The notes beneath the pieces were generated by a model that saw nothing but the letters and a program-made list of their open reading frames with translations, made no database searches and had not been told where the DNA came from. From a virus, in UHGV virus genome UHGV-0348865: a stretch of 64,000 nt of DNA; one strand, 5' to 3'. Shown piece by piece: positions 3,680 through 53,479 of this stretch. Each line of letters opens with the position of its first letter. Within the stretch, counting starts at the first letter, position 1. Position numbers and translations under genes: made by a program.

Positions 3680-3688
3680 AATTCCTCC

Positions 3689-4492: not shown

Positions 4493-4504
4493 AAGGCACC
4501 TCCA

Positions 4505-4996: not shown

Positions 4997-5025
4997 TCCT
5001 AACCTCCTTTTGTAGTCCCTTTAAA

Positions 5026-5244: not shown

Positions 5245-5303
5245 TTGAGTGTCTCCTATATATTAACCTCTTGGGATATATTAGTTTCATTACTTACTAA
5301 GGG

Positions 5304-5333
5304 TACTTACTACTAAAGCCCCCGAAGGGGGCT
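5304..5333 (-). terminator. candidate terminator after tail fibre gene
   Basis: AGCCCCCTTCGGGGGCT hairpin on the minus strand followed by a moderately T-rich tract. Confidence 0.45.
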
Positions 5334-5337
5334 TATC

Positions 5338-7446: not shown

Positions 7447-7460
7447 TAAATCCTCCTAAA

Positions 7461-7478
7461 AGCTCCCCGAAGGGAGCT
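7461..7478 (-). terminator. intergenic hairpin between the two fibre genes (attenuator or RNA-stability element)
   Basis: AGCTCCCTTCGGGGAGCT perfect hairpin on the minus strand; no clean T-run, next gene's ribosome-binding site follows. Confidence 0.3.
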
Positions 7479-7485
7479 GTGTTAA

Positions 7486-10400
7486 TTAACGAGCTTTCAG
7501 TACAGCTACTTCATTCTCTAGAGCTTCAATCTTGTCCAAGAGGACAAGAAGAACTTCGTGATGAAGAGCGGCTGCTACACCATAGGTGTCAACAGATTTA
7601 ACATCCTTCACAATTGTTCCATCTTTCAACTCCGTGTCAGAGAACTTAGTAACCTTGACGGCATCCGGAAAAACCTTCTCAACATCTTGAGCTAAGAAAC
7701 CAATACCATTGGGCTTAGAGAGTTTATCCAACCGCTCCCATGTTACACCCTTAATAGCTTTAAGTTTCTCTATAGGGTTTTCAATCCGTTTGATGTTCGT
7801 CTTAAGCCTCTCATCAGAGGTGCTTGCCCAATTTCCTGCTTGTGCCGTTCCATCAGGAAAGAACTTGAAGTCAGCAGCTGTTCCAGTACCACCATTCACA
7901 GAAATCTGAGCGTGCATCAACTCTGTTCCACCACCACGAACACCACCAAAAGTGTAACTGCCATCATACCAGTCACCAGAGAAATAGGAAACATACCCCG
8001 GAGTACTTTGGTTGAAATTGATCATCCTGATAGCGTTCTTCTCACTTGGTGCTACACCAACAGAATTGTTAGCCCTGACCAGCACGTCAGTAGGTCTTAA
8101 GTATGCATCAATTGTTAGTGCCCCGTCAGCCCTCTCTGTTCCAATCTGGGTGATAGCATTGGGAAATACCAGAGTACCAGCATTATTGAATTTCCATTCC
8201 TGGTTTCCATTAAGAATCTTAGCACCAGACTTATTAGAAGCCCCATCTATCTCTCCATAAGCAGACATAGTTGCTGAGTAGGTTAAATCTGTTCCTATCT
8301 TATATTCTGAACGAACCAGACCACCAGATACAGTAAACCCAGCCGATGGTTTAACATCATCGCTATTAATAACACTCCAAGAAGTATTAGCAGCAGTAAA
8401 GCCACCATTAGCACGAATCACCCAGACACCTATGAAGCTGTTGGTGCGGACTTCGGTCGTGTTGTCGCGACCATAAGCGGCGTTTGATAGGCCCGCTCGA
8501 AAGCCGACGGAAAGCGCTGGTGTGGTTCCTGCGCCTAACGGAATATTAAGTGCTGGATCAGCCGCAAACATCGCCCCCGTAGGATCTCCATATACGCTCC
8601 ATATGTTCGCACCAACGGAGCCTGTAATATCAGGCGCGGCGTTCTGCTGAACAGTACCGTCGTTGGCGCTGTTACCACCGTCACCGCGAGCATACAGACC
8701 AGAGATAGAACCGGTTTGAACGCCATTTCTATCAGGAACGCGGAAAGTAGTAGAACCATCACCTAAAGAGTATTTACCTCTTTTCTGAGGATCAGCCAGC
8801 CAGTCAGCATCTGTGATAGGGCTTAAGGCTTGAGCATAAGCCCATAAATCTGGATATGAAGTACGAGACAAAAGTTGTCCATCAGAAGGTACATCATTAG
8901 AGTGAATTAAAGCACGACTATCAATTAAACGGAAATCACCTATGTTGAAGTTGGACACTCCGTTTAAGCTTGCACCACTTCCACCACCTCCTTGGTTGCG
9001 TAATTGACGAAGGGTAACTGCATCTGAATCACTAACCGCATCACCACCTAAACGAGTGGGACCAATCAATCCTTCCAGTTTCGTAATATCTGAGTTAACC
9101 CCAGAAGAGTTGATAGCAGCAGCACCAATAGCAGCAGGAGTAGGTTTGTTACCTTCAGTGTAAAACTTATTCTCACCGCTAGGACCAACATGCACAGGAA
9201 CCGAAGCAGACAGCACTTTTGTGTTACTTGTATCGTTGCCAACCAAGACAGTACCGTCAGAACCAGAGGTGATCAAATTAACAGCAACACCATTACTAGA
9301 AGTGCCTGTTAATACAATACCTGTTCCTAGATTTAAGTGTCCTGTCATTTTACCACCAGAAGTAGGAAGAGCACCTAAATCAGAAGAGGTCAAAGCAACA
9401 TTACCTGTTACCTCGTCAGGAACTTTTCCATTAACTGCAACAACATATGGAACTTGAGCAAGAGGCTTACCATCATACTGAGCATCACTGGTAAGATTTG
9501 GAGATCGAATTGCTTCCCCTCCTGTCCAATCAGGCAGACGGATGTTGATGTAGTTTGTAGAATCCGCATCAGTGATACCGTCAGCAAGTTTACCCCAAGA
9601 ATAGTATTGCTTTGAACCAGCCTGCCACTCTGTCTCAGAAACTACCGGAAGCTGACCGTTGACCAAAGAAGCTCCTAAATCTGATGCAGTGTCTTTGGAA
9701 ACCAAACGACCATCAGCAGGCAAAATACCCGGGTAAGAAACAGGACGAGATGGGTCATATGGAAACATCAACAATTCACCAAGATACAGAGATGGGTTCC
9801 CTGTCGGGATGGTGATATCAATATTACCAGTTGAGTCAGGAATACGAGAGTTTACTGTTATTACCCTATTCTCTGTCTTAACTGGGGTTAATGTTTTGTT
9901 CGAAGCTACAGTATAAAATTCATATTTGTAATCTTCCCAAACCAGAACGTTCTCACCAGTTTTTCTGTTAACAGCATCGGCATCAGCCGCAGCTTTTGTT
10001 CTGTATGTTTTAACATAACCATCCACTTTCCCATCAACCTGAGATGTACTGTAAGATGCAACGTTTACGACATTATTTAAACCAACTGAAGTTTTATCTA
10101 AGACTAGATTAACATCACCGGTAGCTGGAGATCCTCCGTTCACTGCAACTGAACGAACAGATGGGATTAAGTTAGCGATATCCTCTAAGGTTGTTTTATG
10201 TACGGTATTATCGTCCTTATCAACATAGAATCCTAAATCACCAAGCTCAGGAATACCTGTAGGTGCTGTATCCAAGTCTTTAACAGAACCATCTTTTCCG
10301 GGTTCGCCTTCTGGGATACCTAAAGAGATTACACCAGTGTTAGGGTTAAAAGAACCAGTAGCTTGACTCCCCGGAGGAAGGGTAGTTACATCAACAGACA

Positions 10401-10773
10401 TTCCCAACAGGATATCAAGCTGTCTCTGAACTTCGATTAGTTTCTGGTTAATGAGAGCAACGGCATTATTAGCATCCGACACTGCTGCGTTAGTCTGAGC
10501 AATAAGTGTCATCAAACGAGCATCTTGATCTTTAAAGTCCTGTTTAAGTTCTTCGATATCTTGCTTCATTAAAACACCTTGTTGATACAGACGTTCTACT
10601 TCAGTGATCAAGTCATCAATTGTACCAAACTTAGACTCCGCTAGCAGTGCCCAATATTTGGAGTCAGCTGCATATTCTGCTGCTTGCTTGTAAGCTCCGA
10701 TAGAGCCTTCCTTAGCACCAAACTGCCCAACATCATTCACTGCATCAGGTGCTTGGTTATTATAAACGATCAT
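7486..10773 (-). CDS. tail fibre protein 1 with tail-collar domain and C-terminal intramolecular chaperone (peptidase S74-like) domain
   Basis: 1095-aa ORF; DAVTLRQLRN and KYSLGDGSTTFRVPDRNG motifs; C-terminal SDERLKTNIKRIENPIEKL...GFLAQDVEKVFPDAV motif. Confidence 0.7.
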   Translation of the reverse strand: MIVYNNQAPDAVNDVGQFGAKEGSIGAYKQAAEYAADSKYWALLAESKFGTIDDLITEVERLYQQGVLMKQDIEELKQDFKDQDARLMTLIAQTNAAVSDANNAVALINQKLIEVQRQLDILLGMSVDVTTLPPGSQATGSFNPNTGVISLGIPEGEPGKDGSVKDLDTAPTGIPELGDLGFYVDKDDNTVHKTTLEDIANLIPSVRSVAVNGGSPATGDVNLVLDKTSVGLNNVVNVASYSTSQVDGKVDGYVKTYRTKAAADADAVNRKTGENVLVWEDYKYEFYTVASNKTLTPVKTENRVITVNSRIPDSTGNIDITIPTGNPSLYLGELLMFPYDPSRPVSYPGILPADGRLVSKDTASDLGASLVNGQLPVVSETEWQAGSKQYYSWGKLADGITDADSTNYINIRLPDWTGGEAIRSPNLTSDAQYDGKPLAQVPYVVAVNGKVPDEVTGNVALTSSDLGALPTSGGKMTGHLNLGTGIVLTGTSSNGVAVNLITSGSDGTVLVGNDTSNTKVLSASVPVHVGPSGENKFYTEGNKPTPAAIGAAAINSSGVNSDITKLEGLIGPTRLGGDAVSDSDAVTLRQLRNQGGGGSGASLNGVSNFNIGDFRLIDSRALIHSNDVPSDGQLLSRTSYPDLWAYAQALSPITDADWLADPQKRGKYSLGDGSTTFRVPDRNGVQTGSISGLYARGDGGNSANDGTVQQNAAPDITGSVGANIWSVYGDPTGAMFAADPALNIPLGAGTTPALSVGFRAGLSNAAYGRDNTTEVRTNSFIGVWVIRANGGFTAANTSWSVINSDDVKPSAGFTVSGGLVRSEYKIGTDLTYSATMSAYGEIDGASNKSGAKILNGNQEWKFNNAGTLVFPNAITQIGTERADGALTIDAYLRPTDVLVRANNSVGVAPSEKNAIRMINFNQSTPGYVSYFSGDWYDGSYTFGGVRGGGTELMHAQISVNGGTGTAADFKFFPDGTAQAGNWASTSDERLKTNIKRIENPIEKLKAIKGVTWERLDKLSKPNGIGFLAQDVEKVFPDAVKVTKFSDTELKDGTIVKDVKSVDTYGVAAALHHEVLLVLLDKIEALENEVAVLKAR

Positions 10774-10782
10774 ATTATCTCC

Positions 10783-11535
10783 TTATACACGAGAAGTACG
10801 AATACCATAAATATCAGGCAAGCTGCTCTGAAGTCGAGTCATGTTATTCGGAATTGCGATAGGTGAACCTGAGTACTCTTGTTTCTTATGCTGCTCTACT
10901 ATTTCATCAAGGATAGCTTTTCCTAATGCAGACCATTTCTGAACTCCATTATCATCTTGAACAAATAAGCAAGCGTGACGTAGAGTGAAATACAGAAGAA
11001 GCTCTGGTGCAATAGTAAGGATAGCACTGGTATCTGTATCTTCATGGAATTCCGGTGGGTCCGCATAATAGCTAAGAATCACTGAGTTTTCTGCTGGAAT
11101 CAAAGGGCTTCCATCATCAGGATAAACAGGAGTGTCTGCTTCAATACTAGGATAGAAAATGAAACGACTCCCGAAACGAGCAAAGTTAACAGGCTGGTTG
11201 TTCCAGTGGGATGGGTTAATTGTTCCATGCTGTCTACGATAGCTAATCTCTTCCGGAGATGTTACTTGGAAGATTGTACCATCTTTGGCTCTCATCATCC
11301 ATTGAGCTTCTAAGTAATCAGGAGGAATATAAGCCACTCCATCTTTGATATCTAAATACACTTCTTTTTCCAGAGGAGGAATACGTAAGTTACGATAAAT
11401 CTCTTTCTCTGCAAAGTTAATAAAGTTTGGAATTTGATTAACAAATTCGTCATCGTCCCTATCTGCCCAGAGGGCCACGGCCTTCTTTAGCCACCCATAG
11501 GTATTGATGGGGTATTGAACATCTGGCATTGCCAT
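10783..11535 (-). CDS. virion structural protein, function unknown
   Basis: 250-aa ORF between capsid/Ig ORF and tail fibre; tight spacing to neighbours. Confidence 0.4.
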   Translation of the reverse strand: MAMPDVQYPINTYGWLKKAVALWADRDDDEFVNQIPNFINFAEKEIYRNLRIPPLEKEVYLDIKDGVAYIPPDYLEAQWMMRAKDGTIFQVTSPEEISYRRQHGTINPSHWNNQPVNFARFGSRFIFYPSIEADTPVYPDDGSPLIPAENSVILSYYADPPEFHEDTDTSAILTIAPELLLYFTLRHACLFVQDDNGVQKWSALGKAILDEIVEQHKKQEYSGSPIAIPNNMTRLQSSLPDIYGIRTSRV

Positions 11536-11597
11536 AGGTTGTCCTCCTTGTTATATGTAGACAAAGAATATACATTACACACTGGCTTGTATAGGTC

Positions 11598-11629
11598 TTA
11601 AAACGAAAAAACCCCGCCCGAAGGCAGGG
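11598..11629 (-). terminator. rho-independent terminator after capsid/Ig ORFs
   Basis: CCCTGCCTTCGGGCGGGG hairpin followed by TTTTTTCGTTTT on the minus strand. Confidence 0.7.
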
Positions 11630-11636
11630 TCTAATT

Positions 11637-12149
11637 TTAAGCAGGTGTTACACCAGTAAAAGTGCATGTTGCATTGATAGACGGGTCAGCTGTCAAACTA
11701 GCTTGAACAGTAACTTCGCCACTTGCAGCAGCATCTAATTTTAACGAATTATTAGCGCTTATTGTACCAGCTTCTACGGGAGTTACAACAAGTGTGTAAT
11801 CATCAGCAACAGAATTGGTTACAGTAAACATGGTGTTGAAGTTAGTGGTAGTACCACCTACTTTACCTGTAATTGGCCCACGACTCACAATAGTAGGAGC
11901 AGGAGCAACAATTTCAGAAATGGTTGCTGTACCAGAAACACCTTCTAAAGTTGCAGTAATGGATACATCAGTGGATTGAGACGCACTCGGAGCAGTATAC
12001 AAACCAGACTGAGTGATAGAACCACCTCCTGTCACTGACCAAGTAAAGCCAGTTGTTTCGGTAGAACCATCACTTTTCTCCGCGCTTGCAGTGAACTGCC
12101 GAGTAGCCCCTGTCTCTAGACTTGCTAAAGACGCAGGGCTAACAGTCAC
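11637..12149 (-). CDS. Ig-like (Big_2-type) domain ORF; probably the C-terminal extension of the capsid protein made by -1 frameshifting
   Basis: Ig-like sequence; its frame is open upstream through the capsid 3' end and across a GGGAAAG slippery heptamer at 12173-12179. Confidence 0.5.
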   Translation of the reverse strand: MTVSPASLASLETGATRQFTASAEKSDGSTETTGFTWSVTGGGSITQSGLYTAPSASQSTDVSITATLEGVSGTATISEIVAPAPTIVSRGPITGKVGGTTTNFNTMFTVTNSVADDYTLVVTPVEAGTISANNSLKLDAAASGEVTVQASLTADPSINATCTFTGVTPA

Positions 12150-12160
12150 ACTGTCTACTG

Positions 12161-13219
12161 TTACGCCGCCACCTTTCCCGCAGCAGTGAACAGAACGCCG
12201 GAAGCATACGGGTTGCGGTGACGCAGACCAACTTCCATTTCAATCATCCACTTCTCGTAAGAACCGTCTTTAGCCAGTTCAGTACGTTTCGGAGCACGCA
12301 GAACCATCTGAGTCCAGTCAGCGCTACGGAAGAAGTAAACTGCATCGGTAGGCATCCAACGGTTAACGATGATTTTGTAGCTCTGGCCCAGCGGGTCAGT
12401 GATGCTGTTAACTTCGTAGATGAACTGCTTGGTGTTCTCAAAGATACGCTTACGTGAACCCTGAGTATTTTCTTGCAGGCCAGCGAAGATCTTAGCATGA
12501 GCCGGGTTGATCATGATGATATCTGCTTCAGAACCAGCGGTATACAGTTGCAGAGTCATATCAAAGATATCAGCTTCGTCGAAACCAATGTTAGTGGTCG
12601 GGTTAGAAGCATTCTGTGCAACTTTAACAGTTACTGCACCAGTATCCGGGTCAGCAGGACCATTCTTAGTCTTGTCAACAACGCCACCAGACAGACCACC
12701 GTGAGCACACAGGAACTGGAATGCACCAGTCTTACGAGCTGCATGGGTGTCGTTCTTACCAATCTGATCTGGATCAGTTGCAGAGTTAGTCAGGTACTGG
12801 TCAGCCAGAACGTCGGTACGAGCCTGACCGGACAGAAGGATTTTCTCGAGGTCACGCTTAATCTCTTTACCTTTCTTCTCCAGCTGATACATCAGTTCAC
12901 GACCACGACCGTAGTTAGCGGTGGTGTTAGCAGTATCAGAAACACGAACAACCTTACGCAGAATCTGAGTAACGTTAGATTTGATAACAGTCGGTTTCAT
13001 TTCGCCGTCTTCAGCACGAGAGCCTTCGACGTGTGCGTTATTACCGTCAACGCTTGCCAGTGCATCGGTCTGCCAGCTAAAGATAGTCTGGTTGATAGAC
13101 TCTTTACCGGTCATAGATACGAACGGGGTATCCTGAGGGGACAGAACAGAAATCCAGTTAGCAAAAGAAAGTTTTTTACCATTCTGGTCATACGATACAA
13201 ATAAAGTTGGATTAGCCAT
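12161..13219 (-). CDS. major capsid protein
   Basis: 352-aa ORF downstream of portal and scaffold-like genes, strong ribosome-binding site, followed by Ig-like extension ORF; assignment by context. Confidence 0.6.
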   Translation of the reverse strand: MANPTLFVSYDQNGKKLSFANWISVLSPQDTPFVSMTGKESINQTIFSWQTDALASVDGNNAHVEGSRAEDGEMKPTVIKSNVTQILRKVVRVSDTANTTANYGRGRELMYQLEKKGKEIKRDLEKILLSGQARTDVLADQYLTNSATDPDQIGKNDTHAARKTGAFQFLCAHGGLSGGVVDKTKNGPADPDTGAVTVKVAQNASNPTTNIGFDEADIFDMTLQLYTAGSEADIIMINPAHAKIFAGLQENTQGSRKRIFENTKQFIYEVNSITDPLGQSYKIIVNRWMPTDAVYFFRSADWTQMVLRAPKRTELAKDGSYEKWMIEMEVGLRHRNPYASGVLFTAAGKVAA

Positions 13220-13260
13220 GTTATGTTAGCTCCTATACTATTAATAATTTAATTTGTCGG

Positions 13261-14337
13261 TTAATCTACGAGGAATTTGAATGCGTCTTCGTGACTAACG
13301 CGACCCTCTGCGAATGCCTTGGCAACCTTAGCGTTGTCGGGCTTATTGGAAGTGCGAGACTTTGCAGCATCAGACTTCACAACCTTGCGTGGAGCACCGG
13401 GACGTTTAATCTTAGCCATCACCTGTTGCTTACCTTTATCAAATTGGTATGCTTTATGGAGAGCTAGGAAAATAGACGGACGGTTTTCCTTCAATACTTC
13501 TTCTTCAGTAGCACCTAAGTCAATTGCGTATTGCATTAAGTTTTGATATAAGTTTTCATCCCAATTTGGAATCTCACGTTTCAGAATATTAACACATTCA
13601 ATGCTCTTGGCTTGGAAAGCTTCCTGCTCTTTAGCTGCTGCTTCCTGCTTAATACGGGCCTGAGCCTGTTCAAGCTGTTGACGGCGAGCTGTGTACTTCT
13701 CTAGGAAACGTTTGTTTTCAACATATGCTTGAGGATCTTCTACTGCAAGCTTGTCCCAATCAAAACCGTTATAATCTTCAATTACTCGGTCTGCTTCTAA
13801 AGACGCTAGTTCTAATACATCCTTCAAACCTACTACACGTTCCTCAAATGCTTCCATATGACGCTGAAGAGTTGATTCTCGTTCTGTCATATCAGCACCA
13901 GTAAGATAGCCATTAGAAAGTTCTTCAATAGTCATCTCACGTCCATCAGGAAGGGTGATAACGGTTTCGTAGTCTACATCAAAGACCTCACCTTCACCGT
14001 CAACAGAATCATCTTCATATTCTGCATCGCTTGAATCTTCTTCCTCTTGTTCTTCTGCTTCAGAGGATTCATCTTCATCTTCTTCGACTTCGCCTTCCTC
14101 TTCACGATCTTCCCAACCATCTTCATCTTCGAACTTAAGCTCATCGCTTTCACCGAGAAGGTCGGTATCAAAGTCGAAATCGTCACCGTCTTTTTCCGGG
14201 AACTCATCGTCAATGTCCACTTCTGGTTCTTGTTCAGATTCTAATCGACCGAGTTCTTCTTTGAAAGAACCTTTCAGGTCATCCAGTTGGAGGAAAGATT
14301 TAAAATCGTTCGGGTCAATATAATTATCTTGTGGCAT
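13261..14337 (-). CDS. scaffolding-like protein (highly acidic N-terminal half)
   Basis: 358-aa ORF with long Asp/Glu-rich tract and helical C-terminal part; located between portal and capsid. Confidence 0.4.
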   Translation of the reverse strand: MPQDNYIDPNDFKSFLQLDDLKGSFKEELGRLESEQEPEVDIDDEFPEKDGDDFDFDTDLLGESDELKFEDEDGWEDREEEGEVEEDEDESSEAEEQEEEDSSDAEYEDDSVDGEGEVFDVDYETVITLPDGREMTIEELSNGYLTGADMTERESTLQRHMEAFEERVVGLKDVLELASLEADRVIEDYNGFDWDKLAVEDPQAYVENKRFLEKYTARRQQLEQAQARIKQEAAAKEQEAFQAKSIECVNILKREIPNWDENLYQNLMQYAIDLGATEEEVLKENRPSIFLALHKAYQFDKGKQQVMAKIKRPGAPRKVVKSDAAKSRTSNKPDNAKVAKAFAEGRVSHEDAFKFLVD

Positions 14338-14573
14338 TATGAAACATCTCCTGCACTATTGATAGCAGCTTTTATGACCTCTTTTAAGCTACCCACCATT
14401 TTATACTTTTGATAACAATCTTCGCGTTTCTTATTCTCATGAGGTTCGGTTTGAACTATCTCTGTCATGAGTCTTTCTTTCAATGCCTCTAATGCTGCGT
14501 CAAGACTGCCGTTAAGATTGAGAGCCGCCAAAGCGGCGGCGTGCTCTTTATTGAATTGATGCCTAATGTTCAT
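14337..14573 (-). CDS. small hypothetical protein
   Basis: 78-aa ORF tightly packed between portal and scaffold genes. Confidence 0.3.
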   Translation of the reverse strand: MNIRHQFNKEHAAALAALNLNGSLDAALEALKERLMTEIVQTEPHENKKREDCYQKYKMVGSLKEVIKAAINSAGDVS

Positions 14574-14582
14574 TCGACGTCC

Positions 14583-16826
14583 TTACTTTTTACTTCCAAG
14601 ACGTTTGCCTGGAATCCGTGAATCTTTGAGAGAAGCTTGTTGCTCTTTCTTAGTTACATTAGCTTCTTTCTTTTGGAGTTCCAAAGTTTTGTCCTGAACA
14701 CGAGCTTGCTGAACAATCTTCTCTTGGTCTACCTGATGAGACATAACCATCTGCAATTCTTTCAGTACAGATTCATACTGACGGACCTGCTGTTGCATAA
14801 GAGCTAACTTGTGCTTAGCTTGTTCCAGAGTAGCATTGTTATCTTCTTTACGGTTTTCCAGAGTCATTTCATCTGCTGCATTTTCTTGCTTGAACTGCAA
14901 CTCTTCCTGACGCAGACTTAATTCATCCGCAGCTTTCTGCTGTTCGAATGTAGTACGTTCACGTTGGTCGAATGCATCAGCAATCATCTTCTGAGAAGAA
15001 GCCTGTACGTTCTCAACCTGAGCTTTAGTCATCTCGAGCTGAAGGATTTCCATCGGAGAAGGTTCTGGAGGCTGATACTGTTCCAGAGGCAGAAGGTATT
15101 TATGTGTATCTTTAATACCCATCAACTCAAAGATCTGTGCAGTCATGTAACGGTCTTGCTCCAAACCAAAGAGAGGTGCTAACTGTGCATCTGCTGCAAT
15201 CAGCTGTTTCAAGCTAATCAGTTTCTGTGCACGTTCTGCTTTCTCGTTAGGAGAGATAGCCACAACAACTTGGAGGTTGTGACGAGCTGGTAATTGTTTT
15301 GGATTTACCTGAACCATACCACGAGGGGTTTGTACCTCAATAGGAACTTCACCGTTTTCTCTGATAAGGCTGTAAATACCACGCATCAACTCAACCATAC
15401 CATTGTGAGCAATGTTACGACATACCATACGGAGACGGTTCTGTGCAGCATTCATCATCAAGCCTACGGTTGCATAAGCGTTATCATTCTTAAACACATC
15501 AGGGTTGATACCCATGCCTAGTTTGGTTACACCTGTACGTGTCTCTTTAAGCTCCTCAGACATACCTAGGAGGCCATCAATACCTTGAGGTAGGTTATGG
15601 TATGGGAACAGGTCAATAGCGTCCTGACGTTCCATTTCAACCACTCCACCGGGACGGTTATCAAGCAGAGAGCGACGATCGTATGCACCAACAAGAGCCT
15701 TGTATCGACCATAGTTAGCATTGTTGACGTTATCAATGTAACCACGAACTAGCGCGGTACGTAAATCTTGAATATCTTTCGTAATGTCATAGACCGATTG
15801 ACCATAGAAGGAACCCGGAATCGGATACGGGCAGAAGGTTACAAACGGAATGTGAGTCACTTCTTCAGTGTGAAGGATATGCTCACCAGCTTGAATAACC
15901 TGATAGAGTTTAGACTCTTTATTCTTATCTAGAACACCAGTACGAATGTAGTGCTCATAAACCCAAACCATAGAAGCGATATCTTCAGTATCTGTACCAA
16001 TATCAGCATCAATATCCTGACGCCAGTCAGTACGAGACCAAGCAACTGTAGATTGAGTAGTATCCATCGTGTCTGTCCAGTCGTTAAATGCTTCAATCTC
16101 ATCTTTAGGGAAGCCCATAGCAACCAGATCTTCTTTAGAACGACGTACACGATGACAGAAGTATTGTGCATCTGCAAAAGAGGTAGCATGTTCGTCAACA
16201 AAGATTTGCTCTGAAGGAACATATTCAACTTTCACACGTTTAACAGTTTGTTCGTAAGTAACTTTAACATCTACTGTACCGTCTTCATTTTCTTCAGTGA
16301 AGATTTCCAGATTCTTGAGTCCACCAGCTTCTAATCCCTGAACATATGCAGCCAATGCTTCCGGTGGTACACCTTCAGCTTCTTCAGTTTGAGTAGAAGT
16401 TTGCTCATCCCAATAATATTTGATAAAAGAGTTACGAGTAACCAGACATTCTTGTGCAGCAGAAGAGATAATATTGTATCCCGGATTGTCACGCAGAAGA
16501 ATTTGGTTAACCAATTTAGTTGCTACATCAGCAGCATCAGAATCCTGTTGGTTGTCAGCTACGAAAGTAACTGCTTCATCACCAGAACAGAATACGTTAA
16601 TAATATCTTGCAATGTACCGTTAACAGATTCCCAAACAGTACGATCTACCCAACTAGAGCTGCCAGCAGTTACTGGTGCAGGTAAGTTACCATAGAAATA
16701 TTCCCAAGCTTCACGAGCATAGCCCTTAACAGCCATGTCCACGTAGCCTTGAGCATAATTAAAACGACGTTGAAGGTCAACACGTAACTCGTCCAACACC
16801 TCTTCACTATATTTTTGCTTAGCCAT
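14583..16826 (-). CDS. portal protein
   Basis: 747-aa ORF immediately downstream of large terminase in the late operon; C-terminal coiled-coil; assignment by size and context. Confidence 0.55.
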   Translation of the reverse strand: MAKQKYSEEVLDELRVDLQRRFNYAQGYVDMAVKGYAREAWEYFYGNLPAPVTAGSSSWVDRTVWESVNGTLQDIINVFCSGDEAVTFVADNQQDSDAADVATKLVNQILLRDNPGYNIISSAAQECLVTRNSFIKYYWDEQTSTQTEEAEGVPPEALAAYVQGLEAGGLKNLEIFTEENEDGTVDVKVTYEQTVKRVKVEYVPSEQIFVDEHATSFADAQYFCHRVRRSKEDLVAMGFPKDEIEAFNDWTDTMDTTQSTVAWSRTDWRQDIDADIGTDTEDIASMVWVYEHYIRTGVLDKNKESKLYQVIQAGEHILHTEEVTHIPFVTFCPYPIPGSFYGQSVYDITKDIQDLRTALVRGYIDNVNNANYGRYKALVGAYDRRSLLDNRPGGVVEMERQDAIDLFPYHNLPQGIDGLLGMSEELKETRTGVTKLGMGINPDVFKNDNAYATVGLMMNAAQNRLRMVCRNIAHNGMVELMRGIYSLIRENGEVPIEVQTPRGMVQVNPKQLPARHNLQVVVAISPNEKAERAQKLISLKQLIAADAQLAPLFGLEQDRYMTAQIFELMGIKDTHKYLLPLEQYQPPEPSPMEILQLEMTKAQVENVQASSQKMIADAFDQRERTTFEQQKAADELSLRQEELQFKQENAADEMTLENRKEDNNATLEQAKHKLALMQQQVRQYESVLKELQMVMSHQVDQEKIVQQARVQDKTLELQKKEANVTKKEQQASLKDSRIPGKRLGSKK

Positions 16827-17063
16827 CGATTCTCTCCCTCGGTTGATAGCTTAAATAAAAGAAGGGAGGACAAACCTCCCAATTTTTCTGTTTGGACGTT
16901 TCTGTTTTTAACGTGGGGCTGTCCTACCACCACTAGAATTTAGTAACCACAAGACTAAAAGGGAGGTCGTAGCCTACTCTCCCCAACAAGCCGCCAGAAT
17001 GCTTGCCCCCTGCGCTAGAAAGGCTAATCTCTGGCCTAAACCTCTCTAGAAACTCTTAGAATT

Positions 17064-18605
17064 TTAGTAACTCTGATTCCATCTGCTTACGTTTGCCTCA
17101 TACAAAGAAGCACTTCCGTAGCTAACGTCATGCTTAGAGCGACCACGATGTGTAACAGAGCACGCTGAATAGCGCATTGCATCCATTAAGTCATCATGTT
17201 CTTTAATAATCTTACCAACCTTACGGTGATATCTAGCTTTCTCTTCAAATAGCTTAGCGTTAGCGGCTGTGTTAAAGATTTTAAAGCGTCCACTCATCAT
17301 TCTTTCTCGGATATCCGTGATTCCCGGTTCTACAAAGAAGTTCTTTTTACCATCCATTCCAATTTTGTTGTAGAAGGTCTCACTCTGTACGTTAACTCCT
17401 GCATTCTTATAGAATTGAGCAACAGATGAACCACTACCTTTCTCAATATTGTCCGCATCGTGCGGTAGGATGACAGGAATCCACTGACCACGACCATTAA
17501 TAGCTGGAGCATGATACACTGGAGTAAAGCCACCTTCTTTATATGAGTCGTAAACATAGATAGTATCCGTGTTTGCATCGTAAGCTGTCCAAACAGCAGC
17601 AGTTGGGTGATCAATACCAATATCAATTGCACAGACACGTTTCCACGTATCAGGAATTTCGAATGGTTCACATTTAATTGTGTCATCCGATACATCATAA
17701 ATCAAACCACTTCCTAACAATGGCATACCTTTCGAACGCATCTCTAACTGCCACGCTGGAATACCTTCAGTCATATCTTTTATATCTTGGTCAGTGATAT
17801 GTCCACCTAGGTCTGCATGAGCATCCCACCAAGAAGCATTCTGGAAATATAGAGAACCTGTGTTCTCATCCCCTTCACCTTTCATAAATTTATCTACCAG
17901 TTCAGTTAAACCGTTCTCTGGTGTAGCTGTAATTGTAACTAGACCTTTAGTTGTGAGTGTACGTGTGACGCACTGTGCGAATATAGCCATAGACTCGTAT
18001 GGATCTTCTTCGTCTAACCAAATGTAGTCAACTGTTGCACCCATCAATGTGTGTTCACCCTGTTGGGTTGAACGGAATTCTAATGTACTTAAACCGTCAA
18101 ACTCTCCTCTTTCGTTTTGATGTTTGATTTGTACGATTTGAAGTTTGTTACCATCTCGCTCTATCGTGTCAATGACGATAGCATCACGAGGAATGACACC
18201 TGTCCCCAATAAGTTTGTATCCTTTCCGATAGGCGTACCAAACAATTCCTTTTGCAACACTTTCCTTGTGGAATCCCCTGTAATACCAACTGCCCATGCT
18301 AAGATAGGTCTTTTAAATTTATATCCTGTCCACCAAGTTGGGTAGCGACCTGTGACATGACAAGCAAACTCGTATGCCTCGCTGTAAGATTTACCAACAC
18401 GGTTCGCTGCACACAAGAATCTAAAGCGATGCTTCAATCCTGCTGCATAAAATTTCTTTTGGAAGTCATACGCCTTGAAAGACAAAATCTTATTATACTT
18501 CCTCCATTGGTCACGCTCTTTCAACATATTCAATAGTGCTTTCTTTTCCTCTACACTAAGGTTGTTACCAGTTAGAGCTTCATAAATTTGTTTATCTAAT
18601 GACAT
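17064..18605 (-). CDS. terL: terminase large subunit
   Basis: 513-aa ORF; Walker A-like ANRVGKS near N-terminus; Asp/Glu-rich nuclease-like C-terminal half; precedes portal. Confidence 0.75.
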   Translation of the reverse strand: MSLDKQIYEALTGNNLSVEEKKALLNMLKERDQWRKYNKILSFKAYDFQKKFYAAGLKHRFRFLCAANRVGKSYSEAYEFACHVTGRYPTWWTGYKFKRPILAWAVGITGDSTRKVLQKELFGTPIGKDTNLLGTGVIPRDAIVIDTIERDGNKLQIVQIKHQNERGEFDGLSTLEFRSTQQGEHTLMGATVDYIWLDEEDPYESMAIFAQCVTRTLTTKGLVTITATPENGLTELVDKFMKGEGDENTGSLYFQNASWWDAHADLGGHITDQDIKDMTEGIPAWQLEMRSKGMPLLGSGLIYDVSDDTIKCEPFEIPDTWKRVCAIDIGIDHPTAAVWTAYDANTDTIYVYDSYKEGGFTPVYHAPAINGRGQWIPVILPHDADNIEKGSGSSVAQFYKNAGVNVQSETFYNKIGMDGKKNFFVEPGITDIRERMMSGRFKIFNTAANAKLFEEKARYHRKVGKIIKEHDDLMDAMRYSACSVTHRGRSKHDVSYGSASLYEANVSRWNQSY

Positions 18606-18766
18606 ACTTCCTCCAGTTTAAAAATAGAAAAGGGAAAGTCCCTTCGTCAAAGAACCTCCCCTCTCCACTACAAGGGTACACTGCAAAAGAACATCGTGGC
18701 AATAAAACTATAACAATCCTCAGATTGCTAGTCAGATGATCTTCGACAGCTCCCTGTTTCCTTTAA

Positions 18767-19240
18767 TTAACTCTCGTCCGCTTCCTCCCCCTTTTCAGCG
18801 TCCTCAGAGTTGTCTTCTTCTGGAGGCATAACGTCGATACCAAGTGCTCCAGTCAAGAAGTCCTTGATTTGTGCATTCAATGATTCTTCGTTGATTACAT
18901 TCTCTTCCTCAATCTTAACTTCAACAGAGGCCGCCTTAGGATATACCAGATCTGCAACTTTTGATGCAGCCTTGAATCTAAGATCAGGTGGAATATTAGG
19001 ATCTTCGTAAATTTGAATTAACACTTCATCAGGAGACAAATGACTTGCAGCAACACGGTCCAACATTAATTGTGTCAGTTTACCTCTACTACCTCTGGGT
19101 CGTCCGAATTTATTTCCCTTTTGAAACTTCCCATTGCTTGGGTTCATACCACGGCTTTCGAGTTCTTCCGTTACTCCGGGTAATCTTCCTGTAACCTCAG
19201 CTACCTGTGCAGGCGTGAGTTCTCCGTTTTCTCCAAACAT
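18767..19240 (-). CDS. candidate terminase small subunit
   Basis: 157-aa ORF directly upstream of terL on the same strand; N-terminal helix-rich region, acidic C-terminus. Confidence 0.4.
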   Translation of the reverse strand: MFGENGELTPAQVAEVTGRLPGVTEELESRGMNPSNGKFQKGNKFGRPRGSRGKLTQLMLDRVAASHLSPDEVLIQIYEDPNIPPDLRFKAASKVADLVYPKAASVEVKIEEENVINEESLNAQIKDFLTGALGIDVMPPEEDNSEDAEKGEEADES

Positions 19241-19296
19241 TTTATACTCCTTCTACATTATCAACAACACAAAAAGCCTCCCAACGGAGGCAAACA

Positions 19297-19932
19297 TTAC
19301 TTACAATCACCAACGGACAGGTTAAACATCTTACCTAGAGCAATCGTCTCACCTTCCCACGGAAGTTCTGCACCCTTCTCTTCCTCTAAAAGAATAGAGC
19401 CGTCGACCAAAAATTTTTCGTAGTCTCGCAGTGCGTCGTCTACTAACTCACTCTTGTGAATCCACGTAATAGTTTCTGTACCATCCTCTTCGATTCGAAC
19501 ATCACGATGCCATTCATCTTTGGAGGTAATGTAATCATGGAGCATTTCATATTCAGCTTCTTCAATCATCTCAATCATTGCACGAGCGTAGTCAGGGAGG
19601 TGATCATGTTTGGTAGATTCATATTCAACTACTTCCAGAGTAGATGGTTGTGTTTTAGTTTTAGAATCAGGGCGAGTAGTATGAATCAAATCTAACATGT
19701 TTTTGTTCTCCGTAATAGTTGGTTTAAGAATACTTCCACTATATAAATCTTGTACAGCTAGTCCTGAAATATTTCCCATAGTTTCTAAATGTTGCAAGCT
19801 ACAACCAGAACGGCATAGCTGTGAATTATAATCGTTAAGGTCCATTGCTTTAATGTGGAAAGGAGAACCAGAAGGGAAACTACCTCCATCTCCATAAACA
19901 CCTTCCATGTTACGTGCGATTAAACTATTCAT
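19297..19932 (-). CDS. hypothetical protein
   Basis: 211-aa ORF in late operon. Confidence 0.35.
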   Translation of the reverse strand: MNSLIARNMEGVYGDGGSFPSGSPFHIKAMDLNDYNSQLCRSGCSLQHLETMGNISGLAVQDLYSGSILKPTITENKNMLDLIHTTRPDSKTKTQPSTLEVVEYESTKHDHLPDYARAMIEMIEEAEYEMLHDYITSKDEWHRDVRIEEDGTETITWIHKSELVDDALRDYEKFLVDGSILLEEEKGAELPWEGETIALGKMFNLSVGDCK

Positions 19933-50088: not shown

Positions 50089-50298
50089 ATGAGGCCAATC
50101 ACTATGAGAAAGTTTTGGTTAGCGAAGATTAAGTGGGCATCAGGTGGTATGACTATGACTGCACTGCCTACTCGTCAACAGGCTCGAGATTTTAAAAAGT
50201 CTATGTTTAATATGGACTTAACTAAGAGCATCAGTATTCATAAGGCCAGAGAGTATTCCTCTGGTCGTGTTTATATCAGCGGAAAGGTACATTACTGA
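50089..50298 (+). CDS. small basic protein, paralogue pair member A
   Basis: tandem with 50298..50507; shared KKSM...SIH...E.S.G pattern. Confidence 0.4.
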   Translation: MRPITMRKFWLAKIKWASGGMTMTALPTRQQARDFKKSMFNMDLTKSISIHKAREYSSGRVYISGKVHY

Positions 50299-50507
50299 TG
50301 AAAAAGATGTGGGCTATTCGTGTTGTTTGGAATCACGAGCAACACTTGGGAAAAGATAATATCAAACTGTTTAACACTCGCAAAGAGGCTCGTATTGCTA
50401 AAAAGAGTATGAAAGCTCTGGTCGGTACAGTTGAACATGTTAGCATACATCGTTGGGTTGAATTCTCAGAAGGTACTAGTATGCTATCTCGGAATGTTTA
50501 CTACTGA
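50298..50507 (+). CDS. small basic protein, paralogue pair member B
   Basis: tandem duplicate of 50089..50298. Confidence 0.4.
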   Translation: MKKMWAIRVVWNHEQHLGKDNIKLFNTRKEARIAKKSMKALVGTVEHVSIHRWVEFSEGTSMLSRNVYY

Positions 50508-50579: not shown

Positions 50580-50906
50580 ATGTTAGATTTGAGTAAAGTG
50601 GCCCCGCCCACTGAAGAGATTACAAAATCCAAGGTGATGCAACAGTTTTATCATCGTGATATGCTTGGTCGCTTTATCAAGAATCGTGATGTTGTTGCTT
50701 GGTCTATTGGTAATCAGGGATATCTGTTGAAGGTTCTTCAGGTTACAGGTTCAACTGCTAAGAGAGTTAAGGTGTATGACCCTGAAATGGGGCGTTCTAA
50801 GTCAGTAGACCCACAGAACTGCATCGTAATTACCCAGCAGATCCTAAGTAATCTAGAAAGAAATGTAGCAAATTCTACTGAGTTAGAAGGAGAAGACCCT
50901 AAGTGA
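50580..50906 (+). CDS. hypothetical protein
   Basis: 108-aa ORF. Confidence 0.35.
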   Translation: MLDLSKVAPPTEEITKSKVMQQFYHRDMLGRFIKNRDVVAWSIGNQGYLLKVLQVTGSTAKRVKVYDPEMGRSKSVDPQNCIVITQQILSNLERNVANSTELEGEDPK

Positions 50907-51397
50907 TTCCAAAGGAATTGGAAGGGAAGATTGATGTAACAGAAGATGGTAGAGTATTTACCGTAAAGAGTAGAAGGTTTTTAACCCTCCACACTAATGG
51001 TGCCTATTATAGAGTCACTATTTACTTTCCTGACGGATTAAAGAATTTCTATGTCCACAGGCTGGTTGCTAGTAAGTACATACCGAACCCTGATAATCTT
51101 CCGTGTGTCAACCATAAGGATGGCAATAAACTTAACAATCATAAAGACAATCTTGAATGGTGTACCCACCGAGAAAACTCTCAACATGCATCATCATTAG
51201 GTTTGATGGTACAGAGGTTTGGAGAAGACAATCCGCAGTCTAAACTTACTCTAAAAGATGTAGAGTACTGTAGGAGAGTTTATATTCCTCGAGATAAAGA
51301 GTTTGGAGGCTCTGCCCTTGCAAGACGTTTTGGTGTCTCTCAGCAAGTGATATCAAAAGTTCTACTTAATCAAACTTGGAGGGAATATAATGCATAA
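50903..51397 (+). CDS. HNH homing endonuclease with C-terminal HTH-like region
   Basis: VNHKDGNKLNNHKDNLEWCTHRENSQH motif; paralogous to 54759..55253. Confidence 0.6.
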   Translation: MIPKELEGKIDVTEDGRVFTVKSRRFLTLHTNGAYYRVTIYFPDGLKNFYVHRLVASKYIPNPDNLPCVNHKDGNKLNNHKDNLEWCTHRENSQHASSLGLMVQRFGEDNPQSKLTLKDVEYCRRVYIPRDKEFGGSALARRFGVSQQVISKVLLNQTWREYNA

Positions 51398-51953
51398 GAA
51401 TGTCTTTGATTTACCTGAGATTGGTCGTGACAGCTATAGCATGTTAGACCGGTCTGAGCTTTCAATCTCTCGCCTTGAAACAATGCAAGGCATGATTAGT
51501 GCAAACAGCCTAGAACACATCCTGAGCTGCTTACAAGCTAACATGGAACTCTTGCATATCAAAGCTAAGAACTACCACTGGAACGTCTCTGGTGCAGGAT
51601 TTCAGGGTGTTCATGGTATGTTTGACGAGCTGGAAGATTACGCACGACAAGTAGGAGATCGTATTGCTGAACGTATGCGTTACCACTGTGTTAAGGTGGA
51701 TGCTACAGCAGCTAACTATCTTTCTCATGCTTGGTTCTCAGAGGGTAATGCTGATCTAGATATGGATGGTATGCTCTCTGATATGTGCATGACCTTGATG
51801 TGTATTATTGAGAAGATGGATGAGTTTGATGGTGATTTAGCCTCATACCCTGTTGATCAGAGTATGCTTCAAGAGATTAATGAAGGTCTTGGCAAGTATT
51901 GCTATTTCGTCAAGAGCAACATGTCCCATTCAAGTGGCGACGTGTCTTACTAA
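51390..51953 (+). CDS. Dps-like ferritin-fold protein
   Basis: KAKNYHWNVSGAGFQGVHGMFDELEDY matches Dps signature. Confidence 0.5.
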   Translation: MHKNVFDLPEIGRDSYSMLDRSELSISRLETMQGMISANSLEHILSCLQANMELLHIKAKNYHWNVSGAGFQGVHGMFDELEDYARQVGDRIAERMRYHCVKVDATAANYLSHAWFSEGNADLDMDGMLSDMCMTLMCIIEKMDEFDGDLASYPVDQSMLQEINEGLGKYCYFVKSNMSHSSGDVSY

Positions 51954-52202
51954 AAACCTCCGCCCTGTCTCCTAACCCGAGGTGGGGCGAACTTATTTAT
52001 AAGGATATAGATATATGTTATCAGCAATCGTATGGGGTATTTGGGCTATCTTTATTGGTGGTGGTATTTACTGGGCTTCTGGTAAGCTTATTGAAGAAAC
52101 CCCTGACAAGAAAGGTGAGATTCAAACAGCATCAACCATCATGGTTATTGTAGCTGTTGTTATCCCATTCCTGCTTCACCTCCTGACCGCATAAGGATTT
52201 AC

Positions 52203-53149: not shown

Positions 53150-53479
53150 ATGATTGACAGTAGTACATTCAGGACTTCAAATGGAAGTGAGATAAGTCCC
53201 GCTGAAGTAATCAATCGGCATAGAAGGCAATTAATCATCCATTCCTATTTGTATTACTGGTTGGATGACCCTATCTGGTCCGATGATAAATGGCAACAAG
53301 TTGCTAACGATTTGGTTGAGTTGCAATCTCTGTATCCAGAACCTACTGGAGTCTTTGACAACGAGTTTAAAGATTGGGATGGTTCTACAGGAATGCACCT
53401 CCCACATAACGAGGCTGTTGCTTGTATGGCGACAGCTGTTTACAGGATTCATAAAGATATGAACCATGAAGTGCTCTAA
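53150..53479 (+). CDS. hypothetical protein
   Basis: 109-aa ORF. Confidence 0.3.
   Translation: MIDSSTFRTSNGSEISPAEVINRHRRQLIIHSYLYYWLDDPIWSDDKWQQVANDLVELQSLYPEPTGVFDNEFKDWDGSTGMHLPHNEAVACMATAVYRIHKDMNHEVL

What the first reader, a model, noticed from the sequence alone, without database searches (positions are those of the whole stretch)
51390..51953. Dps-like ferritin-fold gene in a phage
The KNYHWNV-G-GF-H-MFDE signature is characteristic of Dps, a host nucleoid-compacting and iron-sequestering protein. A phage copy could protect replicating DNA from oxidative damage, compact DNA, or interfere with the host nucleoid.
Basis: partly seen in the sequence, partly recalled or inferred. Interest (0 to 1): 0.45.

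Follow-up and report, generated by a model that had tools for sequence, protein, structure and literature searches.

The report
Known Dps mini-ferritin of Kuravirus phages
This gene encodes the Dps-family iron-oxidising "mini-ferritin" (gp67) that phiEco32-like coliphages carry in their DNA-replication gene block; it is real, expressed and conserved, but it has been annotated since 2008, so the find is ordinary, although its role in infection has not been tested.

Summary
Window 51390..51953 (+) is an intact 187-aa ORF with a GGAGG ribosome-binding site. It contains the quoted KNYHWNVSGAGFQGVHGMFDE stretch. Sequence profiles, a confident AlphaFold model and fold search all place it in the Dps branch of the ferritin superfamily. 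All six ferroxidase-centre positions of E. coli Dps are invariant across the phage clade, and the gene is under strong purifying selection (dN/dS about 0.01-0.07).

The window is a Kuravirus (phiEco32/SU10-like prolate podophage). The protein is 100% identical to one in phage myPSH2311 and 98% identical to phiEco32 gp67. GenBank already labels gp67 "DNA binding protein, member of the Dps family". The SU10 ortholog was detected by mass spectrometry. So this is already known.

Two refinements:
- The Kuravirus form lacks the Lys/Arg-rich tail that E. coli Dps uses to bind DNA. It has conserved, non-basic N- and C-terminal extensions and a net charge of -15. Iron and peroxide detoxification is therefore the favoured role, and DNA compaction is not.
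- A conserved small SH3-like protein (gp68) sits just upstream of dps in most relatives.

No experimental study of a phage Dps was found. Interest is low.

The parts
51390..51953 (+). dps-like gene, the ortholog of phiEco32 gp67 / SU10 CDS67. It encodes 187 aa, 21.2 kDa, pI 4.7.
   Evidence: ORF. Pfam, NCBIfam, PHROG and PDB hits. AF2 model with pLDDT 87.4. Foldseek top 50 PDB matches all Dps. 100% identical to myPSH2311 AVP40147 and 98% to phiEco32 gp67.
51378..51382 (+). Shine-Dalgarno GGAGG, 7 nt upstream of the ATG.
   Evidence: Read directly from the sequence.
51390..51521 (+). N-terminal extension, residues 1-44, specific to the Kuravirus-type 'long' proteins. It holds the conserved motifs MH[KN]N[VP]FDLP and S[ILM]xR[LM][ED]xM, has net charge -3, and is predicted to form a helix at residues 18-36 with low confidence.
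   Evidence: Alignments and tail-charge table. AF2 pLDDT 54-71 over this stretch. dN/dS 0-0.24. No paralog elsewhere in the window.
51567..51674 (+). Ferroxidase-centre segment, residues 60-95: K60, H63, W64, H75, D79, D90, E94. These correspond to E. coli Dps K48, H51, W52, H63, D67, D78, E82.
   Evidence: Invariant in alignment A1, which holds 13 phage homologs plus E. coli Dps. The E. coli sequence was verified against 1F30/1DPS.
51918..51950 (+). C-terminal tail, residues 177-187 (NMSHSSGDVSY). It has no Lys or Arg, is predicted disordered, and is conserved in the long type only.
51961..51989 (+). Terminator-like hairpin with an 11-bp stem (7 G-C pairs), starting 8 nt after the dps stop codon.
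   Evidence: Consensus scan only.
50580..50906 (+). gp68-like gene, 108 aa, with an SH3-like beta-barrel fold and unknown function. It is the conserved upstream neighbour of dps in this phage lineage and a possible partner.
   Evidence: 19 invariant positions across 7 genera. Adjacent to dps in most of them. Present in 10 of 10 clade contigs against 0 of 25 others. AF2 pLDDT 82.7 with only weak KOW/PWWP/Tudor fold hits.
50903..51397 (+). HNH homing-endonuclease gene inserted between gp68 and dps. It is not part of the Dps function. Its last 8 nt overlap the start of dps.
   Evidence: Pfam HNH_3 and PHROG 59. Absent from phiEco32. Present at this site in only 3 of 59 related records.

Best explanation
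The ORF encodes a divergent but genuine Dps-family mini-ferritin, the ortholog of phiEco32 gp67. It is made as a middle-gene product together with the phage's nucleotide-metabolism and replication proteins. Shown here: it has the Dps fold, with helices A and B, a short BC helix, and helices C and D. It keeps every ligand of the inter-subunit ferroxidase centre: H63 and H75 with D79 on one subunit, D90 and E94 on the two-fold partner, plus the radical-trapping W64. It is under strong purifying selection, and its SU10 ortholog is translated during infection. Inferred from what is established for Dps proteins: twelve subunits form a hollow cage. The cage binds Fe(II) at the dimer interfaces, oxidises it preferentially with H2O2, and deposits Fe(III) inside. 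This removes both reagents of Fenton chemistry while phage DNA is being replicated and oxidant-sensitive nucleotide enzymes are working. Because its tails are non-basic and each subunit carries net charge -15, it most likely acts like the non-DNA-binding Dps proteins (Listeria Dps, Bacillus Dlp-1/2) and not as a DNA-coating protein.
For: Family and fold:
- Pfam PF00210 scores above its cut-off, and the three NCBIfam hits with E<0.01 are all Dps models.
- All significant PDB sequence hits are Dps.
- The AF2 core has pLDDT above 94 and includes the BC helix at residues 107-112.
- The Foldseek top 50 PDB matches are all Dps, with rmsd down to 1.1 A and TM up to 0.93.

Active site and selection:
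- The ferroxidase ligands and the Trp are invariant across phage homologs down to 29% identity and in E. coli Dps.
- Core dN/dS is 0.015-0.07.

Expression:
- SU10 CDS67 was detected with 6 peptides at 35.8% coverage and is classed as a middle gene.

Context:
- In six genera the gene lies among dCTP deaminase, thioredoxin, ThyX, PhoH, DNA polymerase and, in relatives, the oxygen-sensitive anaerobic RNR NrdD/NrdG.
- The nearest cellular relative examined lies in a Fur-family / Dps / AhpC peroxide-stress cluster.

Tails:
- N-tail net charge is -3, the C-tail has no K or R, and the whole protein is net -15 with pI 4.7. The E. coli Dps N-tail is net +3.

Literature:
- Published work already proposes oxidative-stress relief as the role of phage DPS genes (PMC8008677).
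Against: - No assay exists. Dodecamer formation, iron oxidation and any phenotype are all inferred.
- The host already has Dps, Bfr and FtnA, so the benefit of a phage copy during a short lytic cycle is not obvious.
- The protein falls far below NCBIfam's Dps equivalog cut-offs (35 against 114 bits) and is only 18% identical to E. coli Dps. Altered chemistry is therefore possible.
- The conserved Kuravirus-specific N- and C-extensions have no role in this explanation.
- The Privateer homolog co-purified with CsCl-banded virions, which a purely cytoplasmic detoxifier does not predict.
- 'Short' homologs in sister genera do carry K/R-rich N-tails, so DNA binding may be ancestral in the clade.
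Confidence: 0.6

Rival explanations
1. It is a DNA-binding and DNA-compacting protein, as the GenBank label 'DNA binding protein' implies. It would coat or condense phage or host DNA the way stationary-phase E. coli Dps does.
For: It belongs to the Dps family. The short homologs in Grimontviridae and related genera have K/R-rich N-tails with net charge +1 to +5, like E. coli Dps. The conserved upstream gp68 has an SH3-like fold whose weak structural neighbours include nucleic-acid binders and could act as an adaptor. An N-terminal helix is needed for DNA binding in Lactococcus lactis Dps (established knowledge).
Against: In this protein and all long-type relatives the N-tail has net charge -3 to 0, the C-tail -3 to 0, and the subunit -15. 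From established knowledge, tail-less or tail-immobilised Dps proteins (Listeria, Agrobacterium, Dlp-1/2) do not bind DNA, and a dodecamer carrying about -180 charges would repel DNA unless cations bridge them. The 'DNA binding' label is transferred from the family name and was not tested.
Confidence: 0.15
2. It is a virion-associated protein, either capsid cargo or surface-bound, of prolate C3 podophages. It would be delivered with or packaged beside the genome, by analogy with ferritin-like cargo inside HK97-fold encapsulin shells.
For: The Privateer Dps homolog was among the few proteins detected in CsCl-purified particles. The gene is conserved in all C3-morphotype phages compared in the SU10 paper. 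BFVD contains Dps-fold domains inside proteins labelled 'Prohead protease' in uncultured Caudovirales. The long-type N-extension carries a conserved terminal peptide motif that could be a docking signal.
Against: The gene lies in the middle-gene nucleotide-metabolism block on the + strand, far from the structural genes, which are the large ORFs at 662..19932 on the - strand. The SU10 sample was a PEG-precipitated lysate that also contained DNA polymerase, thioredoxin and PhoH, so it shows expression only. An iron-loaded roughly 250-kDa cage could simply co-band with particles (inference). A 9-nm dodecamer cannot pass through a portal channel (established knowledge). The Privateer protein lacks the N-extension. 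The neighbours of distant viral Dps loci gave no recognisable head genes, and the 'Prohead protease' labels were not verified.
Confidence: 0.1
3. It is an iron reservoir or chaperone. It would capture iron released in the dying host and hand it to iron-dependent enzymes needed for dNTP synthesis, such as host class Ia RNR or the NrdG Fe-S cluster in relatives. Its main role would not be to protect DNA.
For: The same intact ferroxidase site. The tight, conserved linkage to nucleotide-metabolism genes, including NrdD/NrdG in sister genera.
Against: No iron-release partner, reductase or Bfd-like ferredoxin was found. gp68 has a single Cys and no metal-binding motif. Dps proteins store only about 500 Fe per cage and are mainly associated with detoxification (established knowledge). 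This Kuravirus window shows no annotated phage RNR gene near dps.
Confidence: 0.1
4. It is an integrase, as many GenBank records of related phages label it.
For: Only the product names in records such as DE5, IME267, EC.W8-1 and IMEP8.
Against: No integrase or recombinase domain appears in Pfam, NCBIfam or PHROGs. The fold is a four-helix bundle identical to Dps. The label is an annotation error that has been propagated.
Confidence: 0.01

Closest known systems
phiEco32 gp67 (YP_001671812) and SU10 CDS67, with orthologs across Gordonclarkvirinae
   Same: It is the same gene. Identity is 98% to phiEco32 gp67 and 96% to the SU10 protein in BFVD, with the same position between gp68 and the small membrane ORF/thioredoxin and the same 187-aa architecture. 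It is already annotated 'member of the Dps family'.
   Different: In this window an HNH homing-endonuclease gene is inserted between gp68 and the dps gene. There is no other meaningful difference.
Non-DNA-binding Dps mini-ferritins: Bacillus anthracis Dlp-1/Dlp-2 and Listeria innocua Dps
   Same: Same fold (1jig rmsd 1.1 A over 135 columns, TM 0.88; 1ji5 TM 0.93). Same ferroxidase ligands and no basic tail. This is the best functional analogy.
   Different: Identity is only about 22-26%. The phage protein adds a roughly 44-aa N-extension with a predicted helix and an 11-aa C-tail, and it is unusually rich in Met and Cys (15 Met, 5 Cys).
E. coli Dps, the host protein
   Same: Four-helix bundle with a BC helix. 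Its residues K48, H51, W52, H63, D67, D78 and E82 are all matched.
   Different: Only 18% identical, with phmmer E about 0.1, so this is not a recent capture from the host. It lacks the Lys-rich N-terminal tail (K5, K8, K10) that mediates DNA binding and condensation. Net charge is -15 against -4.
Mycobacterium smegmatis Dps2 (2Z90 / 4M35)
   Same: It is the best sequence match among solved structures (E 2e-9, about 25% identity) and a near-top fold match.
   Different: From established knowledge, MsDps2 binds DNA through its tails. The phage tails are non-basic.
Short Dps homologs of Grimontviridae and Lahexavirus phages (7-11, GAP52, Privateer/P59, BUCT695, LAh_9)
   Same: Same phage clade of Dps (29-41% identity), same linkage to gp68, and the same nucleotide-metabolism module.
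   Different: They are 137-156 aa long, have a short K/R-rich N-tail (net +1 to +5) and no C-tail. They may therefore bind DNA where the Kuravirus form does not.
DPS genes of gut 'Gratiaviridae' and Lactobacillus phages (Benler et al. 2021, PMC8008677)
   Same: These are phage-borne Dps genes proposed to relieve oxidative and iron stress in the infected cell. Lactobacillus phage LP65 and Semele proteins are fold matches.
   Different: The lineages and hosts differ and sequence similarity is only distant. That paper did not mention the phiEco32-like phages.

Membership tests
Dps (DNA-protection-during-starvation / mini-ferritin) family | A four-helix bundle (A, B, C, D) with a short extra helix in the long B-C crossover loop and no C-terminal E helix. 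| tested here: met
   The AF2 model has helices at 41-65, 71-98, 107-112 (BC), 125-146 and 154-176, with core pLDDT above 94. The Foldseek top 50 PDB matches are all Dps.
Dps (DNA-protection-during-starvation / mini-ferritin) family | Inter-subunit ferroxidase-centre ligands: His...His(+12)...Asp(+4) on helices A/B, and Asp...Glu(+4) on helix B of the partner subunit. | tested here: met
   H63, H75, D79, D90 and E94 align with E. coli H51, H63, D67, D78 and E82. They are invariant in 14 sequences and invariant or at least 90% conserved in 86, except D79.
Dps (DNA-protection-during-starvation / mini-ferritin) family | A conserved Trp next to the first His, the radical trap (E. coli W52). | tested here: met
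   W64 is invariant in alignment A1 and at least 90% conserved in A3.
Dps (DNA-protection-during-starvation / mini-ferritin) family | Assembly into a hollow dodecamer with 23 symmetry. | not testable with these tools
   Only a monomer could be modelled. The ferroxidase site needs a two-fold dimer, so conservation of both half-sites is indirect support.
Dps (DNA-protection-during-starvation / mini-ferritin) family | Fe(II) oxidation by H2O2 or O2 and mineralisation of Fe(III). | not testable with these tools
   This is a biochemical assay. Only ligand conservation and purifying selection are available.
Dps (DNA-protection-during-starvation / mini-ferritin) family | Curated profile thresholds. 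| tested here: inconclusive
   Pfam PF00210 is passed (31 against 24.5 bits), but that model covers the whole ferritin-like superfamily. The NCBIfam Dps equivalog models match only far below their cut-offs (35 against 114, 32 against 170). It is a divergent member and not an equivalog of E. coli Dps.
DNA-binding Dps subtype (E. coli Dps-like) | A mobile Lys/Arg-rich N- or C-terminal tail, or a positively charged surface. | tested here: not met
   The N-tail (residues 1-44) has net charge -3 with 1 K and 3 R. The C-tail has no K or R. The subunit is net -15 with pI 4.72. The E. coli N-tail is net +3.
Classical ferritin / bacterioferritin | An intrasubunit di-iron site, a fifth C-terminal E helix and a 24-mer assembly. 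| tested here: not met
   The model has no E helix and has a BC helix instead. No ferritin or Bfr structure appears among the top 50 fold matches. One chain whose depositors named it 'putative bacterioferritin' (3kwo) is a weak sequence hit at E 5.7e-4.
Tyrosine/serine integrase (the label in many GenBank records) | A recombinase catalytic domain. | tested here: not met
   No such domain appears in Pfam, NCBIfam or PHROGs.

The most novel reading that the evidence does not exclude
In Kuravirus-type phages the Dps cage has been repurposed. The ancestral basic DNA-binding tail was replaced by a conserved acidic N-extension ending in the peptide motif MH[KN]N[VP]FDLP. That motif would dock the iron cage onto a specific partner: the co-transcribed SH3-like gp68, the replisome, or the procapsid. 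On this reading Dps is a targeted, possibly virion-associated, component of prolate podophages, analogous to ferritin-like cargo in encapsulin shells, and not a free cytoplasmic detoxifier.
Probability: 0.1. Interest if true: 0.55.

Novelty: already known. Interest (0 to 1): 0.2.

Why it matters
As a discovery it matters little, because the gene has been annotated as Dps-family in phiEco32 since 2008 and is mentioned in the SU10 and Privateer papers. Three things have some residual value:
- The common GenBank labels are unreliable for this protein. "Integrase" is wrong, and "DNA-binding protein" is unsupported for the Kuravirus form.
- Dps is a lineage hallmark of C3 prolate podophages, yet I found no experimental study of any phage Dps. 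A simple knockout under peroxide or iron stress would show why lytic phages of enterobacteria carry their own mini-ferritin.
- The split between basic-tailed short forms and acidic-tailed long forms, and the conserved gp68 neighbour, give concrete handles for that experiment.

Tried and rejected
- Different ferritin-like family (ferritin, Bfr, rubrerythrin): rejected by the sequence and fold searches.
- Integrase label: rejected.
- Recent capture of the host dps: rejected, at 18% identity and phmmer E about 0.1 to E. coli Dps.
- N-extension shared with other proteins of the phage as a common targeting peptide: tblastn of residues 1-45 against the whole window found nothing (best E 0.21).
- Resemblance of the N-terminal motif to beta-clamp-binding peptides (QL[SD]LF, QLxLxL): considered from memory. 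It does not fit the consensus and was not pursued.
- gp68 identity: no Pfam or PDB sequence match, and only weak SH3-barrel fold hits with E of 3e-3 or worse.
- Dps beside head genes in distant viral contigs: the neighbours in L046 and L047 gave no recognisable structural families, so the 'Prohead protease'-Dps fusions listed in BFVD remain unverified.
- The original phiEco32 paper (Savalia 2008) could not be read, so I could not check whether gp67 was in its virion proteome.
- Six full-text searches aimed at phage Dps found no functional study of one.
- The promoter scan found fewer sigma-70-like sites than in shuffled sequence. This is uninformative, because the SU10 paper assigns the late promoters to a phage-encoded sigma factor.

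Full report
OBSERVATION. Window 51390..51953 (+) is an uninterrupted ORF of 187 codons. It starts at an ATG 7 nt downstream of a GGAGG. A terminator-like hairpin at 51961..51989 follows 8 nt after its stop codon. The antisense ORFs listed over the gene have no support.

FAMILY ASSIGNMENT. Pfam matches only PF00210 (Ferritin-like), at 31 bits against a cut-off of 24.5. In NCBIfam the three hits with E<0.01 are all Dps models, but all fall far below their equivalog cut-offs, for example 35 against 114 bits. PHROGs gives phrog_3636 'DNA binding protein' at E 4e-55. A phmmer search of the PDB returns Dps structures, led by M. smegmatis Dps2 at E 2e-9 and followed by B. subtilis MrgA, B. anthracis Dlp-2 and B. 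brevis Dps. E. coli Dps itself scores only E about 0.1.

An AlphaFold2 model was built on an 86-sequence alignment. Its mean pLDDT is 87.4, with values above 94 for residues 41-178. It shows helices A (41-65), B (71-98), the short BC helix (107-112) that distinguishes Dps from 24-mer ferritins, C (125-146) and D (154-176). The top 50 Foldseek matches in the PDB are all Dps subunits, with rmsd as low as 1.1 A and target TM-scores up to 0.93.

ACTIVE SITE. In an alignment with 13 phage homologs, query residues K60, H63, W64, H75, D79, D90 and E94 align with E. coli K48, H51, W52, H63, D67, D78 and E82 and are invariant. In the 86-sequence alignment, which reaches cellular Dps proteins, H63 and E94 stay invariant and W64, H75 and D90 are at least 90% conserved.

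Nei-Gojobori dN/dS against phiEco32 and DE5 (close relatives) and KBNP1711 and SU7 (about 81% identical) is 0.015-0.07 for the core and 0-0.24 for the N-extension. dS is saturated for the distant pairs. The catalytic machinery of a Dps is therefore intact and selectively maintained.

WHAT THE WINDOW IS, AND PRIOR KNOWLEDGE. The region is 90-93% identical to many Escherichia phages of the genus Kuravirus (Gordonclarkvirinae), and the 24-kb surroundings are about 94% identical to SU10. The protein is 100% identical to myPSH2311 AVP40147 and 98% identical to phiEco32 gp67. RefSeq NC_010324 annotates gp67 as 'DNA binding protein; member of the Dps family'.

The SU10 paper lists CDS67 ('contains a DPS domain') among genes shared by all five C3-morphotype phages then sequenced. 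It classes the gene as a middle gene and detected the protein by mass spectrometry with 6 peptides at 35.8% coverage. That sample was a PEG-precipitated lysate that also contained DNA polymerase, thioredoxin and PhoH, so it proves expression and not virion incorporation. The Privateer paper reports the Dps-family homolog in CsCl-purified particles and notes that its function is unverified.

Benler et al. (PMC8008677) discuss phage DPS genes as aids against oxidative stress. A tblastn search finds homologs in 137 phage records. A scan of IMG/VR found 35 loci, including jumbo-phage contigs, and BFVD lists many phage 'Dps' models. The finding is therefore already known.

WHAT IS SPECIFIC TO THIS PROTEIN. 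The subunit is very acidic, with pI 4.72 and net charge -15. Residues 1-44 have net charge -3, and the 11-residue C-tail has no Lys or Arg. By contrast the 22-residue N-tail of E. coli Dps is net +3.

Across 86 homologs the phage clade splits in two:
- 'Long' proteins (169-195 aa; Kuravirus, Nieuwekanaalvirus, Suseptimavirus and metagenomic kin) have a 28-52-aa non-basic N-extension. It carries the conserved motifs MH[KN]N[VP]FDLP and S[ILM]xR[LM][ED]xM, and these proteins also have a short acidic C-tail ending in Tyr.
- 'Short' proteins (137-156 aa; 7-11, GAP52, Privateer/P59, BUCT695, LAh) have a 10-22-aa K/R-rich N-tail (net +1 to +5) and no C-tail.

It is established for Dps proteins that DNA binding depends on such basic mobile tails or on a positive surface, and that tail-less members (Listeria Dps, Dlp-1/2, Agrobacterium Dps) do not bind DNA. 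The label 'DNA-binding protein' is therefore unsupported for the Kuravirus form, though it is plausible for the short forms. The N-extension is predicted to contain a helix at residues 18-36, but only at pLDDT 54-71. It has no paralog elsewhere in the window. Its function is unknown.

CONTEXT. In phiEco32, KBNP1711, SU7, 7-11, GAP52, P59, BUCT695 and LAh_9 the gene always lies in the nucleotide-metabolism and replication block. That block holds dCTP deaminase, thioredoxin, ThyX, PhoH and DNA polymerase, and in the Grimontviridae and Lahexavirus relatives the anaerobic ribonucleotide reductase NrdD/NrdG as well.

A small gene, gp68 (window 50580..50906), lies immediately upstream of dps in all genera checked except 7-11, usually abutting or overlapping it. 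It has 19 invariant positions across 7 genera. It is present in 10 of 10 IMG/VR contigs of this clade and in 0 of 25 contigs carrying more distant viral Dps genes. Its model (pLDDT 82.7) is an SH3-like barrel with only weak KOW/PWWP/Tudor neighbours. Shared ancestry could explain this linkage, so a functional partnership is only a hypothesis.

In this window an HNH homing-endonuclease gene (50903..51397) has been inserted exactly between gp68 and dps while preserving the ATGCATAA overlap. It occurs at this site in only 3 of 59 related records. The closest cellular relative examined sits in a Fur-family / Dps / AhpC cluster, a classic peroxide-stress arrangement.

MECHANISM. Shown: the Dps fold, a complete ferroxidase site, purifying selection, translation during infection, and placement among replication and nucleotide genes. 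Inferred: twelve subunits form a cage that oxidises Fe(II), preferentially with H2O2, and stores Fe(III). This suppresses hydroxyl-radical formation while phage DNA is replicated and while oxidant-sensitive or oxidant-producing enzymes operate.

A plausible rationale comes from established knowledge. Host Dps is scarce in growing cells, and flavin-dependent ThyX can leak H2O2. I give this explanation about 0.6. The rivals are a DNA-coating role (0.15), virion association or capsid cargo (0.1) and an iron-donor role (0.1). The 'integrase' label is simply wrong.

VERDICT. Novelty is 'already known', and interest is about 0.2. The least ordinary reading still open is that the acidic N-extension is a docking peptide that targets the cage to gp68, the replisome or the procapsid. 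I put its probability at about 0.1.

Noticed in passing
window 50580..50906 (+): The gp68-like 108-aa protein (PHROG 10984, unknown function) is conserved across 7 genera and almost always sits directly upstream of the phage dps. It is predicted to be an SH3-like beta-barrel with a C-terminal helix, and it was detected by mass spectrometry in SU10. It may be a Dps partner.
   Followed up: partly
window 50903..51397 (+): An HNH homing-endonuclease gene is inserted precisely between gp68 and dps and keeps the 8-nt stop/start overlap. phiEco32 lacks it, and only 3 of 59 related phage records have it at this site (ManiMatter_Bas94, XT18, XT73).
   Followed up: yes
GenBank records of related phages (e.g. 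MW741821 DE5, IME267, EC.W8-1, IMEP8, XT73): The Dps ortholog is widely mis-annotated as 'integrase'. No recombinase domain is present. This error could wrongly flag these strictly lytic therapeutic-candidate phages as temperate.
   Followed up: yes
window 51780..51812 (residues 131-141) and Cys residues 47, 100, 134, 139, 171: The protein is unusually rich in sulfur residues for a Dps, with 15 Met and 5 Cys. This includes a DMCMTLMC stretch on helix C that is conserved in the long-type clade.
   Followed up: no
BFVD entries A0A6J7XDU5, A0A6J7WPK9, A0A6J7WIS1; L047 5596..6513: Dps-fold domains occur inside larger proteins of uncultured Caudovirales that are annotated 'Prohead protease' (333-763 aa). 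An IMG/VR contig (L047) encodes a 305-aa protein with a 155-aa N-terminal region followed by a Dps domain. This hints at capsid-targeted Dps in some phages, but the labels were not verified and the neighbouring genes were unrecognisable.
   Followed up: partly
window 50089..50298 and 50298..50507 (+): Two tandem 69-aa paralogous ORFs both match PHROG 4939 (unknown function). phiEco32 has three similar-sized ORFs at this position.
   Followed up: no
window 53150..53479 (+): A 109-aa ORF consists only of the N-terminal Ia (NAD+-binding) domain of NAD-dependent DNA ligase (Pfam PF22745, E 4e-35). Related phages annotate it as 'DNA ligase', but it lacks the catalytic domains. It may modulate host LigA.
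   Followed up: no
window 52015..52194 (+): A 59-aa ORF directly downstream of dps (PHROG 9296, unknown function) has two hydrophobic segments that suggest a small membrane protein. It is conserved at this position in phiEco32, KBNP1711 and SU7.
   Followed up: no
L011 3550..5227: The closest cellular Dps relative examined (P0068, from a JGI metagenome contig) lies between a Fur-family regulator gene and an AhpC peroxiredoxin gene, a canonical peroxide-stress cluster.
   Followed up: partly
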